DNA of 64,000 bases from a virus (lineage: Duplodnaviria > Caudoviricetes), in IMG/VR virus record IMGVR_UViG_3300021387_001774, positions 160,001 through 224,000 of that record, one strand, 5' to 3'. The translations under genes and the position numbers were made by a program. Below are positions 13,125-58,451 of the stretch, piece after piece. A model generated the notes under the pieces. That model was given only the letters and a program-made list of their open reading frames with translations, ran no database searches and was not told the origin of the DNA. Position 1 is the stretch's first letter. Every line of letters begins with the position of its first letter.

Positions 13125-13251
13125 TATTTTTTTGTTTACTGTTCAAACTATACTGTCTAATCATATATTATATTTATGGAAGATAGAAATAGAGTAGGGT
13201 GTTACCGCACCCTACTCTATAAATTTAATTATCTTTCAAGGAGGTGATTGT

Positions 13252-43504: not shown

Positions 43505-43577
43505 TATGAAAATCTTATTAACTAAAGATTTTCATAATTGACTCCTTGGGGACCCGGTAGTAACCGGGTCCCATTTT
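43505..43577 (+). ncRNA. putative antisense sRNA (hairpin, anti-SD linker, terminator)
   Basis: 12-bp hairpin, linker ATTGACTCCTT, GGGACCCGGT/ACCGGGTCCC terminator; 43526-43547 is complementary to 58440-58462. Confidence 0.65.
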
Positions 43578-49606: not shown

Positions 49607-50944
49607 TTATAAAGGTTTAAAAATATTTAAAGTTGAACACAGAGAATAAGTCAAATTATCCACTGGATGCAAACTATTTACGGTATTTTGATTATTAAAC
49701 ATATCAACAAATGGATTACCAGTTGATACATTAGCTTTCATAACTCTAGAATATTCTTTATTTCTAGCTTCACGTTCAGCAGACAATTTTTTATAAAGTT
49801 TTGGCAAGAAATCTGGATTATTAATGATATATCTTTCGTAATCATTTCCTCCACATCTTACTTTATTTTCATTAGGAAGTTCTTCCCAATAAGGCAAATC
49901 TTCACGCAAAAGATTAGCCAAAGATTCAATGAATCTAGGTTGTTCATCGATCATTTCACCAAAACACATGGAGTTATAATGCCAGAAACCAAGAACATGA
50001 CCAATCTCATGTATTAAGACTTTATGAATTACATTACCTTTAGTGTTTTTAAAATATTGTTCTCGAATTTTAACAATACTTCCATGACCTAAACCTCTAT
50101 AGATATTAGCTGGCCACCATCCACCTTGAGTAACAGCGGCACCAATCTTGTCACTATTTGGACAAGCACCAAGACTAAATGTGTTTCTAGTTTGTGGACC
50201 ACCATAATGTGATGAACCAATTCCCCATACTTTTAATAAATGATTTAAATCTTCATCTTCAGTAAGGTCAATACACATGATTTCTTCTGGTGTATTCGTT
50301 GGGAAATTTTTATAATTATTTGTACCTGCGCCAGTATCATCTTTATATTCTGGTAAGATTCTAAATTTTTTACCAACAATTTTTTCGAAATTACGTAAAG
50401 TTTTTACCATTTCTTCAGATTGCATAGTGTATGCTAGATTAGTGATAGCCATTAAAATATTTTTAACGTCTTCTTTTGTTTGTCTTTTCTTTGCACCATA
50501 TTCGCAATACATTGGAATAGTAACATTCCAACAAATGTTCATATTTAGAAGTTTTTTATATCGTTCATCTTCTACTTCTACACTCATTTTGAATTCGTTA
50601 TATTTATCCATAACTCCAGTCTTAATGATAATATTCTCCAAAGGTTCAATAGTTAATGTAAAAATTTTATGTTTACCTTCAGCAAGCACTGGATATTCAA
50701 AATATACATCAACTTCGAGTGTGTATAATGAATAATTCATCAATTCGATAGTATCTTTATATTCGCCATATTTAACTACTAATGGATCTCTAAGTGGAAT
50801 AACTTGACCAGAGTACCAATGATCTGTACTAGGATCCAACACATTTTTAGATGTTATTGAAGGTTTGATAAATTTGAAGGGGTTCTCATAAGTAGGAACA
50901 GATTCAGAAACCTCAACAACATCGTCATTAAAAATTTGACTCAT
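49607..50944 (-). CDS. metzincin-like zinc metallopeptidase
   Basis: HEIGHVLGFWH (HExxHxxGxxH) followed by a Met-containing turn (NSM). Confidence 0.75.
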   Translation of the reverse strand: MSQIFNDDVVEVSESVPTYENPFKFIKPSITSKNVLDPSTDHWYSGQVIPLRDPLVVKYGEYKDTIELMNYSLYTLEVDVYFEYPVLAEGKHKIFTLTIEPLENIIIKTGVMDKYNEFKMSVEVEDERYKKLLNMNICWNVTIPMYCEYGAKKRQTKEDVKNILMAITNLAYTMQSEEMVKTLRNFEKIVGKKFRILPEYKDDTGAGTNNYKNFPTNTPEEIMCIDLTEDEDLNHLLKVWGIGSSHYGGPQTRNTFSLGACPNSDKIGAAVTQGGWWPANIYRGLGHGSIVKIREQYFKNTKGNVIHKVLIHEIGHVLGFWHYNSMCFGEMIDEQPRFIESLANLLREDLPYWEELPNENKVRCGGNDYERYIINNPDFLPKLYKKLSAEREARNKEYSRVMKANVSTGNPFVDMFNNQNTVNSLHPVDNLTYSLCSTLNIFKPL

Positions 50945-51071
50945 ATTACTCTCCGATAAAAAAGAATTAGAAAGATCATAACGACCTTTCTATATTTTAA
51001 TGTTATTTAAATTACATATTATATTCGTGGATAGTAGAAATACTATACTAAATAATATAAGGAAGGAAGAA

Positions 51072-51338
51072 ATGGTATTTTACAATTCATTGACCGGATA
51101 TGTAAACGTTAAGGATCTTTCAAAAGATGTTTTTGAAAGTATTATGAAAAAGATTGGATGTGAATATTCTATCCATAAAGAAGATGGGGAAGAATACTAT
51201 AAATTCACATACAAGCGTACAAACAATTTTTCAATGTCTAATGGAACTGCAGCTAAATTAGATTTTAGTGGAGTTACAATGGAAGATGTTGATTTAGTCG
51301 CCAATCAATTAACTGAAACTGTTGATAATTTGGTTTAA
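51072..51338 (+). CDS. hypothetical early protein
   Basis: Start moved to 51072 (AAGGAAGGAAG SD); promoter at 51010 and GAAA leader hairpin. Confidence 0.7.
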   Translation: MVFYNSLTGYVNVKDLSKDVFESIMKKIGCEYSIHKEDGEEYYKFTYKRTNNFSMSNGTAAKLDFSGVTMEDVDLVANQLTETVDNLV

Positions 51339-51351
51339 GAGGGTAGATAGA

Positions 51352-51525
51352 ATGAATGATAAAGTTAATTTCGATTCTGTCTATATTGATGATTACGTCA
51401 ATGCGAAAGAGCCTGATAAAAAGGAATTCGCAATGATACGTGCTAGGTTTTATGTAAAAGATAAATATGGGGTCGTTGTAGAAGATCCTATAAAATATCT
51501 TATTGCTATAAGATCTGGTAAATAA
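51352..51525 (+). CDS. small hypothetical protein
   Basis: GAGGGT SD, terminator at ~51526-51560. Confidence 0.6.
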   Translation: MNDKVNFDSVYIDDYVNAKEPDKKEFAMIRARFYVKDKYGVVVEDPIKYLIAIRSGK

Positions 51526-51565
51526 AATAAATAGGGGAGAATTAATTCTCCCCTATTTATTTTTT

Positions 51566-52768
51566 TTAATTCATTGTTGCTACAGTTATTGATTTTTTTG
51601 CTCTAGTTATACCAGTATATAACCAGCGGAAATATATGTGTGATGGTATTCTGTCTTCGACTACTAGTAATACATTATCGGCTTCTGATCCTTGATATTT
51701 ATGTACAGAAGCAGCATATCCATAGTCAATCATACATATATCACCTAATGTTTCATCATCTATATTTTCATTATATAGCTCTTCTATAAATGCTTCTTTA
51801 GCTGGATTCTTTTGATACTGCTCAAATATTTGACAGAAGCATTTAGGTTTCAATGATAATTCAGGATTAGTATTATCTAAGAAATCTGGAGTGAAATTTA
51901 GATCGACTAATTCTAAATCATTATAATCTGTAATCTTTGCATCTTGATTTACAATACCAAACATTCCATTTATAATATAAATAGGAATATCTTGGTAATC
52001 AATCATGTAATTATAATTATTCATTAAACACATAATTCGTTCACCTTTTACTGGATAAACACTTGTATATCCTTTAAGTTGACGAATATATAAATTTAAT
52101 TTTCTTCTCATAGCATTTGAAAAACAAAGTACTATGTCGTAATCTAATATTTTTTCACCAATTTCTTCAAAATGTACCACTTTACTAGCATTATAAGTTC
52201 CATATTCCAATTGTTGACAACTTCTAGCTATACTAGCTAATTGTAATATACCACTAGAGTCATCTTGTCTCATAGGTTTTGATAAGAATACATCTGAATA
52301 TTTTTCAGGTTCTGCAATCAAAAAATTAATTTTTCCGAGACAAGGTAACTGAAACCAGTCACCTAAACAAATAGTCGGAACTCCAAACGATAATATATCT
52401 TGTAGCATTTTTTCTGTAACCATAGAAACTTCATCTATAACTATAAGTTTTATATTTGGATTAATATGTTTTTTGAGATTAAACCCAAATGAAGTTCTCG
52501 TTTTGAATACAGAATAAAATGTTTTATGCACTGTGTTAGCTGGATTACCTTTCATTCTTAGAACTAAAGCTGCTTTACCAGTTAATGTACAGAAAATTAC
52601 ATCTTGATTATTTAATCCTAGCATTTTAATAATGATACTAAGTACAGTTGATTTACCAGTTCCTGCTAAACCAAATATAGTAAAATATGGTTTAAATACA
52701 GAATCAGTAAAATACCATTGTACACATTTCTTCACAGCGTCTAACTGTTGATCATTTAAAGTAATCAT
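51566..52768 (-). CDS. Dda/RecD2-like SF1B helicase
   Basis: LNDQQ, GLAGTGKST, TGKAA, TVH, DEVSMV, GD..QLP, MRQ, YAASVHKYQGSE, LYTGITRAK. Confidence 0.92.
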   Translation of the reverse strand: MITLNDQQLDAVKKCVQWYFTDSVFKPYFTIFGLAGTGKSTVLSIIIKMLGLNNQDVIFCTLTGKAALVLRMKGNPANTVHKTFYSVFKTRTSFGFNLKKHINPNIKLIVIDEVSMVTEKMLQDILSFGVPTICLGDWFQLPCLGKINFLIAEPEKYSDVFLSKPMRQDDSSGILQLASIARSCQQLEYGTYNASKVVHFEEIGEKILDYDIVLCFSNAMRRKLNLYIRQLKGYTSVYPVKGERIMCLMNNYNYMIDYQDIPIYIINGMFGIVNQDAKITDYNDLELVDLNFTPDFLDNTNPELSLKPKCFCQIFEQYQKNPAKEAFIEELYNENIDDETLGDICMIDYGYAASVHKYQGSEADNVLLVVEDRIPSHIYFRWLYTGITRAKKSITVATMN

Positions 52769-52789
52769 ATATTGTTGTGTTTCTGGAAA

Positions 52790-52901
52790 AAAATAAAAAG
52801 GAGGAGATCGCTAACTGGGTGGGAAGAAATGCGACCTCCTCCTAACATAAGGAAGAAAAATGGGGAAAGCTATTAGAGAATGGACACTCTATAGCTTCCA
52901 T
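52790..52901 (-). ncRNA. stand-alone sRNA with anti-SD/anti-AUG linker and loop
   Basis: Early-type promoter at 52906-52920 (minus), hairpin 1, linker CCAUUUUUCUUCCUUAU, 13-bp terminator hairpin with loop AUUUCUUCCCACCC and U-tract. Confidence 0.65.
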
Positions 52902-52976
52902 GTAAATAATATATAATTATAAATTCTTTTATTTTTATTCTAAAATATATCTATATAATGTTTTAGGAGTTTAATT

Positions 52977-55836: not shown

Positions 55837-56228
55837 TTACTGTTCAAACTATACCATCTAATTATATATTATATTAATGAGGTAAAGATTAGGGAGGGTA
55901 CACCACACCCTCCCTAAAATTGTGTTATCTCAAAGGAGGTAATCAGTATGCTTTTTAAATACTATTATTCGTTCCTAGACGAAGATGGTAACCTGAAAGC
56001 TGATCATACTTATCTTAGTAGAGATGAGTTCATCAGAATTACAGGTGGAATAGATCCTGTTGAAGCTGGTGCCGAAGTTTACCGAAGGCATTAAATTTCA
56101 ACAGGATCAAGTTCTTTGAGATAATATACTATAATGTATAATATTAAATAGAAAAATATTCTTTATAATGAAGCTTCGTTGAAAACATTATAAAGAATGA
56201 CAGGTCAACTAACAGTACCTGTTTTTTA
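55837..56228 (+). repeat. dispersed cassette copy 2 (homolog of 13137-13576)
   Basis: Same order of conserved blocks as copy 1, with compensatory changes in stems. Confidence 0.9.
55948..56094 (+). CDS. 48-aa small protein, paralog of 13252-13419 (absent from the ORF track)
   Basis: AAAGGAGGT SD; MLFKYYYSFLDEDGNLKADHTYLSRDEFIRITGGIDPVEAGAEVYRRH. Confidence 0.8.
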   Translation: MLFKYYYSFLDEDGNLKADHTYLSRDEFIRITGGIDPVEAGAEVYRRH

Positions 56229-58354: not shown

Positions 58355-58451
58355 ATACTGTTAGAGAGAGAGTGTCAATTATATATTATATTAATAGTAA
58401 GGAATGGAAATTGGTTCCATATCCGAAAGAGATTTCATTAAGGAGTCAATT

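What the first reader, a model, noticed from the sequence alone, without database searches (positions are those of the whole stretch)
52790..52901. Stand-alone early sRNA presenting two anti-SD/anti-AUG sequences
Seen: a minus-strand early-type promoter (52906-52920) points at a ~110-nt unit with no protein-sized ORF that ends in a 13-bp hairpin plus U-tract. The helicase beyond has its own promoter motif. The linker CCAUUUUUCUUCCUUAU and loop (C)AUUUCUUCC are both complementary to SD-spacer-AUG sequences. GGAAGAAATG (52822-52831 on plus) equals the RBS/start of the gene at 51072 (51065-51074), and ATAAGGAAG (52847) matches 51057. Inference: a translational repressor sRNA of the same design as 43505-43577.
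Basis: partly seen in the sequence, partly recalled or inferred. Interest (0 to 1): 0.7.

Follow-up and report, generated by a model that had tools for sequence, protein, structure and literature searches.

The report
Early anti-RBS small RNA, jumbo phage
A giant rumen phage probably makes, at the very start of infection, a short non-coding RNA whose exposed middle exactly covers the ribosome start site shared by about eight of the phage's own early genes. It looks like an RNA off-switch, but its expression and its effect have not been shown.

Summary
The window lies in a 264-kb, 29.5% GC jumbo phage from ruminant gut that uses AR9-type promoters.

On the minus strand I find:
- a perfect-core early (virion-polymerase) promoter at 52918-52900, with the start at G 52899;
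- a 5'-terminal hairpin;
- a 21-nt unpaired pyrimidine linker;
- a 13-bp terminator hairpin with a U tract, giving an RNA of 105-113 nt.

It is the only one of about 58 early promoters that meets a strong terminator before any ORF. Both flanking genes have their own late-type promoters, and the helicase start is leaderless. Two relatives lack the unit.

A second allele (a metagenome contig) keeps the promoter, linker and U tract unchanged. Its terminator stem is rebuilt with 4 compensatory pairs. Both small ORFs are destroyed in that allele, so the unit is non-coding.

The linker is a perfect 15-16-nt antisense match to the RBS of five members of an eight-copy early 5'-UTR cassette that lies outside the window. 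All eight rank in the top ten of 55 early mRNAs in co-folding, and no linker shuffle comes close. The second (loop) motif is not conserved.

Best reading: a stand-alone early anti-RBS sRNA of csRNA-like design. Transcription and repression are inferred only. Another reader of this scan had already noted the same stretch.

The parts
52900..52918 (-). Early (virion RNA polymerase type) promoter: core AATTATATATTAT at 52918-52906, spacer TTACAT at 52905-52900
   Evidence: It matches the genome-wide early motif and the AR9 early consensus with G+1 six nt downstream (PMC5312081). It is identical in allele L008.
52899..52899 (-). Predicted transcription start (G+1)
   Evidence: Inferred from the AR9 rule 'consensus-(6N)-G+1'. 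Not measured.
52865..52899 (-). 5'-terminal hairpin (RNA nt 1-35, about -14.7 kcal/mol)
   Evidence: Folds. 26 of 58 early starts begin with a hairpin of -4 kcal/mol or better within 4 nt, against 24% of control 40-mers. The basal stem is kept and the apical part shortened in L008.
52844..52864 (-). Unpaired linker CCCAUUUUUCUUCCUUAUGUU: proposed seed, with anti-AUG (CAU) and anti-SD (CUUCCUU)
   Evidence: Mean unpaired probability is 0.93. Its complement AACATAAGGAAGAAAA matches 15-16 nt exactly at 5 early RBSs. It drives the co-fold with all 8 cassette mRNAs. 0 of 75 linker shuffles reach the observed target counts. The last 20 nt are identical in L008 and in the X18 allele.
52799..52843 (-). 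Terminator hairpin: 13-bp stem AGGAGGAGGUCGC/GCGAUCUCCUCCU and a 19-nt C-rich loop holding CAUUUCUUCC
   Evidence: About -23 kcal/mol. In window versus L008, 4 of 10 stem pairs changed on both sides and were kept, 1 went from G-U to G-C, and 0 are broken. A G-U pair exists on the minus strand only. The loop core UUCCCACCCA is conserved; the anti-AUG part is not.
52787..52798 (-). U tract of the intrinsic terminator
   Evidence: Read from the sequence. Identical in L008. One extra U in the run X2 contig. In AR9, predicted intrinsic terminators stop phage transcription (PMC5312081).
52770..52781 (-). Context: late-type promoter AACA-(6N)-TA of the helicase, with predicted start 52770, 2 nt before the ATG
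   Evidence: The late motif AAAACAT-N3-(T/A)ATATA recurs before many genes of this genome and equals the AR9 late consensus. The same arrangement without an SD is found in L001, L008 and L050.
51566..52768 (-). Context: Dda/RecD2-like helicase gene, no Shine-Dalgarno
   Evidence: PHROG 325, E 5e-81. Homologues align from residue 1.
51057..51074 (+). In-window predicted secondary target: RBS and start (ATAAGGAAGGAAGAAATG) of the 88-codon early gene at 51072
   Evidence: Exact words shared with the unit. Co-fold ddG is -17.9, rank 11 of 55. The RBS is not strictly kept in L008.

Best explanation
This is a stand-alone gene for a non-coding RNA of about 105-113 nt, transcribed at the onset of infection by the phage's virion-type RNA polymerase from the early promoter at 52918-52900 (start G 52899). 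Transcription ends at the hairpin plus U tract at 52843-52787. The 5'-terminal hairpin and the terminator hairpin bracket a 21-nt single-stranded pyrimidine linker. The linker base-pairs with the Shine-Dalgarno-to-AUG region AACAUAAGGAAGAAA(A..AUG) that is shared by an eight-copy early 5'-UTR cassette, and less well with other early RBSs of similar design, including the gene at 51072. Pairing would block ribosome entry and so damp or shut off those early genes as the RNA accumulates. Status of each step: the anatomy, the conservation and the complementarity are shown; transcription, termination, repression and its timing are inferred.
For: 1. The promoter core is a perfect match to a motif that is 39/40 intergenic and otherwise sits in front of genes or tRNAs. 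It corresponds to the experimentally mapped AR9 early consensus. The genome encodes beta- and beta'-like RNA polymerase pieces.
2. It is the only early promoter of about 58 with a strong terminator before any SD-led ORF.
3. The terminator stem covaries between two alleles: 4 compensatory pairs and none broken. The G-U pair and the U tract fit the minus strand only.
4. It is non-coding. The 27-codon minus-strand ORF changes frame in L008 and X18, and the 18-codon plus-strand ORF becomes 4 codons.
5. It is independent of its neighbours. The helicase keeps a late-type promoter 2 nt before its ATG in L001, L008 and L050, while L001 and L050 lack the unit.
6. The linker is accessible (unpaired probability 0.93). 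It is an exact 15-16-nt antisense of 5 cassette RBSs.
7. All 8 cassette mRNAs rank in the top 10 of 55 early 5' regions in co-folding, with both sRNA hairpins kept. There are 10 targets at -18 kcal/mol or better, against at most 3 in 75 linker shuffles. Only 0.5% of random genome windows have any such antisense hit.
8. The linker, promoter and U tract are unchanged between alleles, while both hairpins changed.
9. Precedent: short start-to-terminator transcripts are detected as sRNAs in jumbo phage 201phi2-1 (PMC11512511).
Against: - There is no direct evidence of expression, of strand or of the 3' end. The one RNA-library contig (X18, depth about 2) bridges the terminator into the helicase. 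If it really is RNA, that would mean read-through.
- Only two alleles of the unit were found, about 95% identical in their flanks, so an unchanged 21-nt linker is not significant by itself.
- The eight targets are paralogous copies, which amounts to about one independent match. That match could be inherited from a plus-strand cassette remnant rather than selected.
- A pyrimidine-rich linker pairs with many purine-rich RBSs, so duplex energies alone rank coding sites equally high.
- The RBS of the gene at 51072 does not co-vary with the linker in L008.
- An early RNA that represses early genes needs a timing argument that has not been tested.
Confidence: 0.5

Rival explanations
1. Orphan or 'empty' early cassette. 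The promoter and terminator are what remains after an early ORF was lost or a mobile early cassette was inserted. The terminator only insulates the helicase and its late promoter from early transcription. The RNA has no function of its own, and the RBS-like word on the plus strand is an inherited remnant of a cassette 5' UTR.
For: - The unit is absent at the same site in relatives L001 and L050.
- Early genes of this phage sit in reusable promoter/leader/terminator frames (earlier scan notes).
- The plus strand reads hairpin-TAACATAAGGAAGAAAAATG, like the 3' end of the cassette UTR.
- Background identity between the alleles is high, so linker conservation is not decisive.
Against: - A useless promoter is removed more easily by mutation than it is capped by a terminator, yet the 13-nt core is perfect in both alleles.
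- The terminator stem was rebuilt by compensatory changes, so it is under selection.
- Similarity to the cassette does not extend beyond about 16 nt, and neither hairpin has a paralogue in the genome.
- There is no plus-strand early promoter and no conserved plus-strand ORF.
- The minus-strand linker has no SD remnant of a lost minus-strand gene.
Confidence: 0.22
2. 5' leader and transcription attenuator of the helicase. The early promoter provides early helicase mRNA by regulated read-through of the terminator, so the short RNA is a by-product. In AR9, continuously expressed genes have an early and a late promoter in tandem.
For: - The unit lies directly upstream of the helicase on the same strand.
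- AR9 has genes with both promoter classes.
- The X18 RNA-library contig spans 52727-52867, across the terminator.
- Before the 3' arm is made, the linker can pair with the terminator's 5' arm in both alleles.
Against: - The terminator is strong (13 bp, about -23 kcal/mol, long U tract).
- The helicase AUG has no SD. In a read-through RNA it would be internal, whereas its own late-type promoter makes it 5'-terminal.
- The upstream ORF that could couple translation is not conserved in frame.
- The linker-to-5'-arm pairing is no better than in 33% of linker shuffles, so it is a composition effect.
- Relatives L001 and L050 express the same helicase without any such leader.
- No Rfam leader or riboswitch matches.
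Confidence: 0.12
3. A real small RNA with another mode of action. It could act on host mRNAs, or as a decoy or sponge for an RNA-binding protein or for ribosomes through its C-rich loop (UUCCCACCCA) and its SD-like and anti-SD-like stem arms. It could also act as a DNA-level element, for example a promoter-driven R-loop used as a replication origin next to the helicase.
For: - The loop core UUCCCACCCA is conserved between alleles although the loop is otherwise rewritten.
- C-rich unpaired motifs are the working parts of several Firmicute sRNAs (general knowledge).
- The host is unknown, so host targets could not be examined.
Against: - The complement of the loop has no match at any start site in the phage genome.
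- The cumulative GC-skew minimum and the main strand switch lie at about 198-200 kb, 13 kb away from the unit.
- No protein partner is indicated by anything in the sequence.
Confidence: 0.12
4. A coding element: either the 18-codon plus-strand ORF (52860-52916, preceded by a cassette-type RBS) or the 27-codon minus-strand upstream ORF (52848-52765) that overlaps the helicase ATG by ATGA and couples translation.
For: - The plus-strand ATG is preceded by AAGGAAGAAAA, the usual early RBS.
- The minus-strand ORF ends in ATGA at the helicase start.
Against: - In L008 and in the X18 allele the plus-strand ORF stops after 4 codons.
- Indels that are not multiples of three shift the minus-strand ORF, which becomes in frame with the helicase in L008.
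- Neither ORF has an appropriate promoter or SD on its strand.
- An open run of 27 codons ending at a fixed point is expected by chance about 10% of the time at this base composition (my estimate).
Confidence: 0.03

Closest known systems
csRNAs of Streptococcus (CiaR-dependent small RNAs; Rfam RF02379; PMC3091779)
   Same: Same design: about 100 nt, two stem-loops, the second being the terminator. They are separated by an unpaired stretch that carries an anti-Shine-Dalgarno sequence and CAU as anti-AUG, proposed to block translation initiation of several mRNAs.
   Different: - No sequence or covariance-model similarity.
- Driven by a phage virion-polymerase promoter, not a CiaR promoter.
- Encoded by a lytic-type jumbo phage.
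- The predicted targets are the phage's own early mRNAs, which share one 5'-UTR cassette.
Short TSS-to-terminator transcripts ('sRNAs') of jumbo phages 201phi2-1 and phiKZ found by ONT-cappable-seq (PMC11512511)
   Same: A phage-polymerase promoter followed within less than 250 nt by an intrinsic terminator, lying in an intergenic region or 5' UTR of a jumbo phage. Functions are unknown.
   Different: - Those were detected experimentally in Pseudomonas phages and have no proposed targets.
- This one is predicted only, in an AR9-like phage of a low-GC host.
- It has a specific predicted target set, and the downstream gene has its own promoter.
AR9 early transcription units (Bacillus phage AR9; PMC5312081)
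   Same: Promoter consensus ...ATATATTAT-(6N)-G+1, late promoter AACA-(6N)-TA/G, and intrinsic terminators that work for the phage polymerases.
   Different: - AR9 early units described there are protein-coding or tRNA, with 5' UTRs of 26-491 nt. That paper reports no small non-coding early RNA and no leaderless gene.
- The helicases are only about 35% identical.
The other small RNA candidate of the same genome at window 43505-43577 (earlier scan findings e1-5641825 and e1-5633814)
   Same: Hairpin, then an unpaired CU-rich linker, then a terminator. It was also read as anti-RBS against the phage's own early genes.
   Different: - That one follows a tRNA-like element and would be released by processing. 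This one has its own promoter.
- The linkers differ (…GACUCCUUGG… there).
- I did not re-test that unit.

Membership tests
csRNA (Rfam RF02379) | Two stem-loops with an unpaired region between them that carries anti-SD and anti-AUG sequences | tested here: met
   Folds. The linker CCCAUUUUUCUUCCUUAUGUU is unpaired (probability 0.93). The feature is taken from PMC3091779.
csRNA (Rfam RF02379) | Match to the family covariance model | tested here: not met
   cmscan at E up to 10 on 4 kb and on the unit alone lists no csRNA hit.
csRNA (Rfam RF02379) | CiaR-dependent promoter in a Streptococcus genome | tested here: not met
   The promoter is the phage early motif AATTATATATTAT-N6-G, in a 264-kb phage genome.
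AR9-type early (virion RNA polymerase) transcription unit | Consensus AAATATATATTAT-(6N)-G+1 upstream of the transcript | tested here: met
   AATTATATATTAT-TTACAT-G at 52918-52899. That is 12 of 13 positions against AR9 and 13 of 13 against this genome's own core. Activity was not measured.
Intrinsic (factor-independent) terminator | GC-rich hairpin followed directly by a U tract, with the structure maintained in relatives | tested here: met
   13-bp stem of about -23 kcal/mol followed by UUUUUAUUUUUUU. 4 compensatory pairs and 0 broken against L008. The tool's simple scan missed it because the loop (19 nt) exceeds its 3-8 nt limit.
Jumbo-phage TSS-to-TTS small transcripts (PMC11512511) | An enriched discrete transcript of less than 250 nt between a mapped TSS and TTS | not testable with these tools
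   Only assembled contigs of public runs were available. They cannot show ends, strand or abundance.
Transcription attenuator / riboswitch leader | A specific antiterminator alternative to the terminator, and a downstream gene that depends on the leader | tested here: not met
   The linker-to-5'-arm pairing is no better than in 33% of shuffles. The helicase has its own promoter, and relatives lack the leader. No Rfam leader matches.
ctRNA_pT181 (Rfam RF00242) | Score at or above the gathering threshold (56 bits) | tested here: not met
   26.3 bits, E 0.075 on the unit alone.

The most novel reading that the evidence does not exclude
A lytic-type jumbo phage uses RNAs made by its packaged polymerase as a post-transcriptional switch. 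One early sRNA pairs with the RBS that is built into a reusable 5'-UTR cassette. Whatever foreign or swappable gene is placed in that cassette therefore comes under the same RNA off-switch. Together with the second anti-RBS RNA candidate at 43505-43577, this would be a small RNA regulon that controls the phage's own early programme.
Probability: 0.3. Interest if true: 0.7.

Novelty: new member of a known kind. Interest (0 to 1): 0.5.

Why it matters
Regulatory RNAs of strictly lytic and jumbo phages are barely characterised. Short promoter-to-terminator transcripts have been seen in phiKZ-like phages, but without targets. Here the sequence itself proposes both an RNA and its target set: eight early genes that share one RBS. 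That gives a directly testable case of RNA-based control of early genes in a phage that brings its own transcription machinery. It would also explain why unrelated early genes are kept in the same 5'-UTR frame. If it is wrong, the locus is just an insulated orphan promoter and is of little interest.

Tried and rejected
**Searches that found nothing or could not be run**
- Megablast and blastn of the locus against 50,697 phage records: no match.
- Rfam on 4 kb and on the unit alone: nothing near threshold.
- Exact-pattern scans of IMG/VR for the linker plus stem: none.
- The metagenome pattern scan gave 7 loci. 6 were an unrelated membrane-protein gene; only L008 is a true allele.
The contigs of the closest helicase relatives (P0001 at 94%, P0002 at 80%, and the 250-260-kb contigs of P0004 and P0009) could therefore not be read.
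- The alignment-based IMG/VR scan gave mostly helicases of about 30% identity. Only L050 (65%) was useful.

**Ideas tested and dropped**
- Translational coupling through the 27-codon upstream ORF: its frame is not conserved.
- The plus-strand 18-codon ORF: it stops after 4 codons in the other alleles.
- A specific antiterminator: it is a composition effect.
- A replication origin: the GC-skew minimum is about 13 kb away.

**Evidence too weak to count**
- There are no substitutions in 52787-52920 in the DNA contigs of runs X2, X3 and X5. Variation there is patchy, about 2 changes would be expected, and P is about 0.1.
- The X18 RNA-library contig over 52727-52867 has depth about 2, gives no strand, and does not exclude DNA.
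- The genome-wide duplex scan with the linker: coding sites score as well as start sites, so energy alone does not discriminate.
- G001 lacks both the unit and the word AACATAAGGAAGAAA, but that record is only 46% complete.
- Pfam on the eight cassette proteins and on the 51072 protein: no family.
- The phage review PMC12197685 holds none of my search terms on lytic or jumbo phages.

Full report
**Context**

The window is bases 160001-224000 of a single 263,686-bp virus record with 29.5% GC, estimated 94% complete. It has no near relative among 50,697 deposited phage genomes. The gene next to the finding (51566-52768, minus strand) is a Dda/RecD2-like helicase (PHROG 325, E 5e-81). Its best named relatives, at about 35% identity, are helicases of AR9, PBS1, Listeria phage LPJP1 and the Staphylococcus jumbo phages. 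The genome holds two beta-like and one beta'-like RNA polymerase matches. Public runs that hold the locus are bovine and sheep gut metagenomes.

**Promoter classes**

One motif dominates the intergenic DNA: (T-rich)AATTATATATTAT-ATTAAT-G, in about 60 copies. It corresponds to the experimentally mapped early promoter of AR9, AAATATATATTAT-(6N)-G+1, which is read by the virion polymerase (PMC5312081). The strict core plus G occurs 40 times, 39 of them outside ORFs; the reversed control occurs 0 times.

A second motif, AAAACAT-N3-(T/A)ATATA, precedes many other genes. It equals the AR9 late consensus AACA-(6N)-TA/G.

**The observation**

On the minus strand:
- core promoter at 52918-52906, spacer at 52905-52900, predicted start G 52899;
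- a 5'-terminal hairpin (nt 1-35);
- an unpaired linker CCCAUUUUUCUUCCUUAUGUU (nt 36-56, 52864-52844);
- a 13-bp hairpin with a 19-nt C-rich loop (52843-52799);
- the U tract UUUUUAUUUUUUU, ending at 52787.

The 113-nt RNA folds at -38.2 kcal/mol, z = -7.5. The only ORFs are a 27-codon one on the minus strand and an 18-codon ATG ORF on the plus strand.

**Is it a separate unit?**

- Of about 58 early promoters with up to 3 mismatches, this is the only one where a strong terminator comes before any SD-led ORF. All the others run into a gene or a tRNA.
- Right after the U tract comes AACA-CAACAA-TA (52781-52770). This is a good late-type promoter whose predicted start lies 2 nt before the helicase ATG, and the helicase has no Shine-Dalgarno sequence.
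- The same SD-less arrangement (ACA-N6-TATATG) is kept in three relatives: L001 (68% identical helicase), L008 (about 95% DNA identity) and L050 (65%).
- L001 has only about 68 bp between the divergent neighbour and the helicase. L050 has a co-directional gene with its terminator there. Neither has the early promoter or the hairpins. The helicase therefore does not need the unit.
- The plus-strand neighbour (52977) is preceded by a late-like motif with one mismatch, as read from the sequence.
- The early promoter thus drives only the short RNA.

**Second allele and coding tests**

A metagenome contig (L008, ODAI010361048.1) is syntenic and 90-95% identical.

Unchanged in its unit:
- the promoter;
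- the start;
- the last 20 nt of the linker;
- the U tract;
- the helicase promoter.

Changed:
- the 5' hairpin has a shortened top;
- the terminator stem is rewritten (AGGAAGGAGC-C-UGC / GCAGCUCCUUCCU).

RNAalifold counts 4 of 10 stem pairs changed on both sides and kept, one G-U changed to G-C, and none broken. L008 folds into the same two-hairpin shape (z = -6.2).

A 151-nt contig from a bovine metatranscriptome library (X18) carries the same terminator allele and linker, with yet another 3' arm of the first hairpin.

In these alleles the plus-strand ORF ends after 4 codons. The minus-strand ORF is frame-shifted by indels that are not multiples of three. Both coding readings are rejected.

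The G-U pair and the U tract exist only on the minus strand.

**What the linker matches**

The complement of the linker, AACATAAGGAAGAAAA, is found exactly (15-16 nt) just before the start codons of five genes, at genome positions 48111, 82137, 126963, 137829 and 256078. It is found with 12 nt or one mismatch before three more, at 2915, 90615 and 237728.

These eight genes share a complete 5' cassette: early promoter, first hairpin, second hairpin GTAGAGATGATACTAC, then TATAAACATAAGGAAGAAA and the ATG. They encode partly unrelated proteins, several of them K/E/Y-rich repeats, and none has a Pfam family.

Co-folding the RNA with each of 55 early 5' regions (start to ATG+25):
- All eight cassette mRNAs fall in the top ten (ddG -18.8 to -23.0 kcal/mol).
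- Pairing is always through the linker, both sRNA hairpins stay intact, and the SD is covered, often the AUG too.
- The gene at 51072 ranks 11th (-17.9).

Controls:
- With 75 shuffles of the linker alone, the observed counts (10 targets at -18 or better, 16 at -15 or better) were never reached; the maxima were 3 and 9.
- Only 0.5% of random 113-nt genome windows have any 15-nt antisense hit to an early start region, and many of those are cassette copies themselves.
- The linker is unpaired with probability 0.93.

The complement of that core has no start-site match in the phage.

**Limits**

- The eight targets are paralogues, so they amount to roughly one independent match.
- The plus strand reads hairpin-TAACATAAGGAAGAAAAATG, which resembles the cassette's 3' end. 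The complementarity could therefore be inherited from a cassette fragment. That would also be a natural origin for an antisense regulator.
- Flank identity between the alleles is about 95%, so an unchanged linker is only suggestive.
- DNA contigs from three other runs show no substitution in the unit, but variation there is patchy.
- A genome-wide duplex scan ranks some coding sites as high as start sites.
- The X18 contig bridges the terminator. If it is RNA, that would indicate some read-through, but its depth is about 2, contigs carry no strand, and DNA carry-over is possible.

**Rivals**

- *Attenuator or leader of the helicase.* The linker can transiently pair with the terminator's 5' arm, but 33% of linker shuffles do as well. 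The downstream AUG lacks an SD, and relatives lack the leader.
- *Orphan or empty cassette.* This fits the absence in relatives and the modular early cassettes of this phage. It does not explain a perfectly kept promoter together with a compensated terminator.
- *Replication origin.* Not supported: the GC-skew minimum is at about 198-200 kb, whereas the unit is at 212.8 kb.
- *Host targets or protein binding.* These cannot be examined, because the host is unknown.

**Comparison with known systems**

By design the unit is closest to the streptococcal csRNAs: two stem-loops with an unpaired anti-SD/anti-AUG stretch between them (PMC3091779). It is not a member of that family. There is no covariance-model match, the promoter is different, and the genome is a phage.

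By genomic logic it resembles the short TSS-to-terminator transcripts reported as sRNAs in jumbo phages 201phi2-1 and phiKZ, whose functions are unknown (PMC11512511). The AR9 study reports no such RNA and no leaderless genes.

**Verdict**

Most likely (about 0.5) this is a stand-alone early sRNA that blocks the shared RBS of a set of the phage's own early mRNAs. The anatomy, the covariation and the complementarity are shown; transcription and repression are inferred. It is a new member of a known kind (trans-acting anti-RBS sRNA), in an unusual setting.

Another reader of this scan had noted the same stretch with the same target idea (e1-5641826). I reached that reading independently.

Noticed in passing
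window 52765-52790, minus strand; L001 2985-3003; L050 1485-1503: The Dda-like helicase has no Shine-Dalgarno sequence. A late-type promoter (AACA-N6-TA) places the predicted start 2 nt before its ATG. The arrangement ACA-N6-TATATG is kept in relatives with 65-95% identity. This suggests a (near-)leaderless late mRNA, which was not reported for AR9 (UTRs of 26-491 nt). A second candidate is the gene at genome 97872 (AACACAATAATATG).
   Followed up: partly
genome positions 2944, 48140, 82115, 90586, 126989, 137858, 237698 and 256049 (all outside the window): Eight early genes share one 5' cassette (promoter, hairpin 1, hairpin GTAGAGATGATACTAC, TATAAACATAAGGAAGAAA) but encode partly unrelated proteins. 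Several are K/E/Y-rich repeat proteins, and none has a Pfam family.
   Followed up: partly
whole genome; for example window 13140-13178, 55840-55879, 58360-58396: A word ACTGTTCAAAC / ACTGTTAAACC recurs about 10 nt upstream of a subset of early promoters. Its role is unknown; it could be a regulator site, the end of a mobile cassette, or a promoter on the opposite strand.
   Followed up: no
L008 753-2080: In the second allele the helicase reading frame is split into two ORFs (753-1283 and 1325-2080). The linker ATG is in frame with the helicase ATG. The split could be a frameshift, an assembly error or an insertion.
   Followed up: no
window 49627-51004: The 445-codon minus-strand gene (49607-50944) is absent from the otherwise syntenic contig L008. 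The adjacent 51005-51567 region is only 81% identical, against 90-95% elsewhere. This is a variable spot next to the predicted target gene at 51072.
   Followed up: no
window 52799-52811, minus strand: The 3' arm of the terminator, GAUCUCCUCCUUU, resembles the 3' end of Firmicute 16S rRNA as I remember it (GAUCACCUCCUUUCU), and the 5' arm is a strong SD-like AGGAGGAGG. This may be only purine/pyrimidine composition. It was not tested.
   Followed up: no
window 51524-51563: An 18-bp AT-rich palindrome with a GGGGAG core lies between the convergent genes 51322-51525 (+) and the helicase (-). It is flanked by T tracts on both strands and is a likely bidirectional terminator. It gives weak, sub-threshold Rfam sraA/CsrC hits on both strands.
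   Followed up: no
genome 50116, minus strand (outside the window): Another early promoter is followed within about 55 nt by a weak hairpin plus T tract (AAACCCTTCTCTAGGGTTTCTTTTTT) before the next gene. It fell below my terminator threshold and may be a second short early transcript.
   Followed up: no
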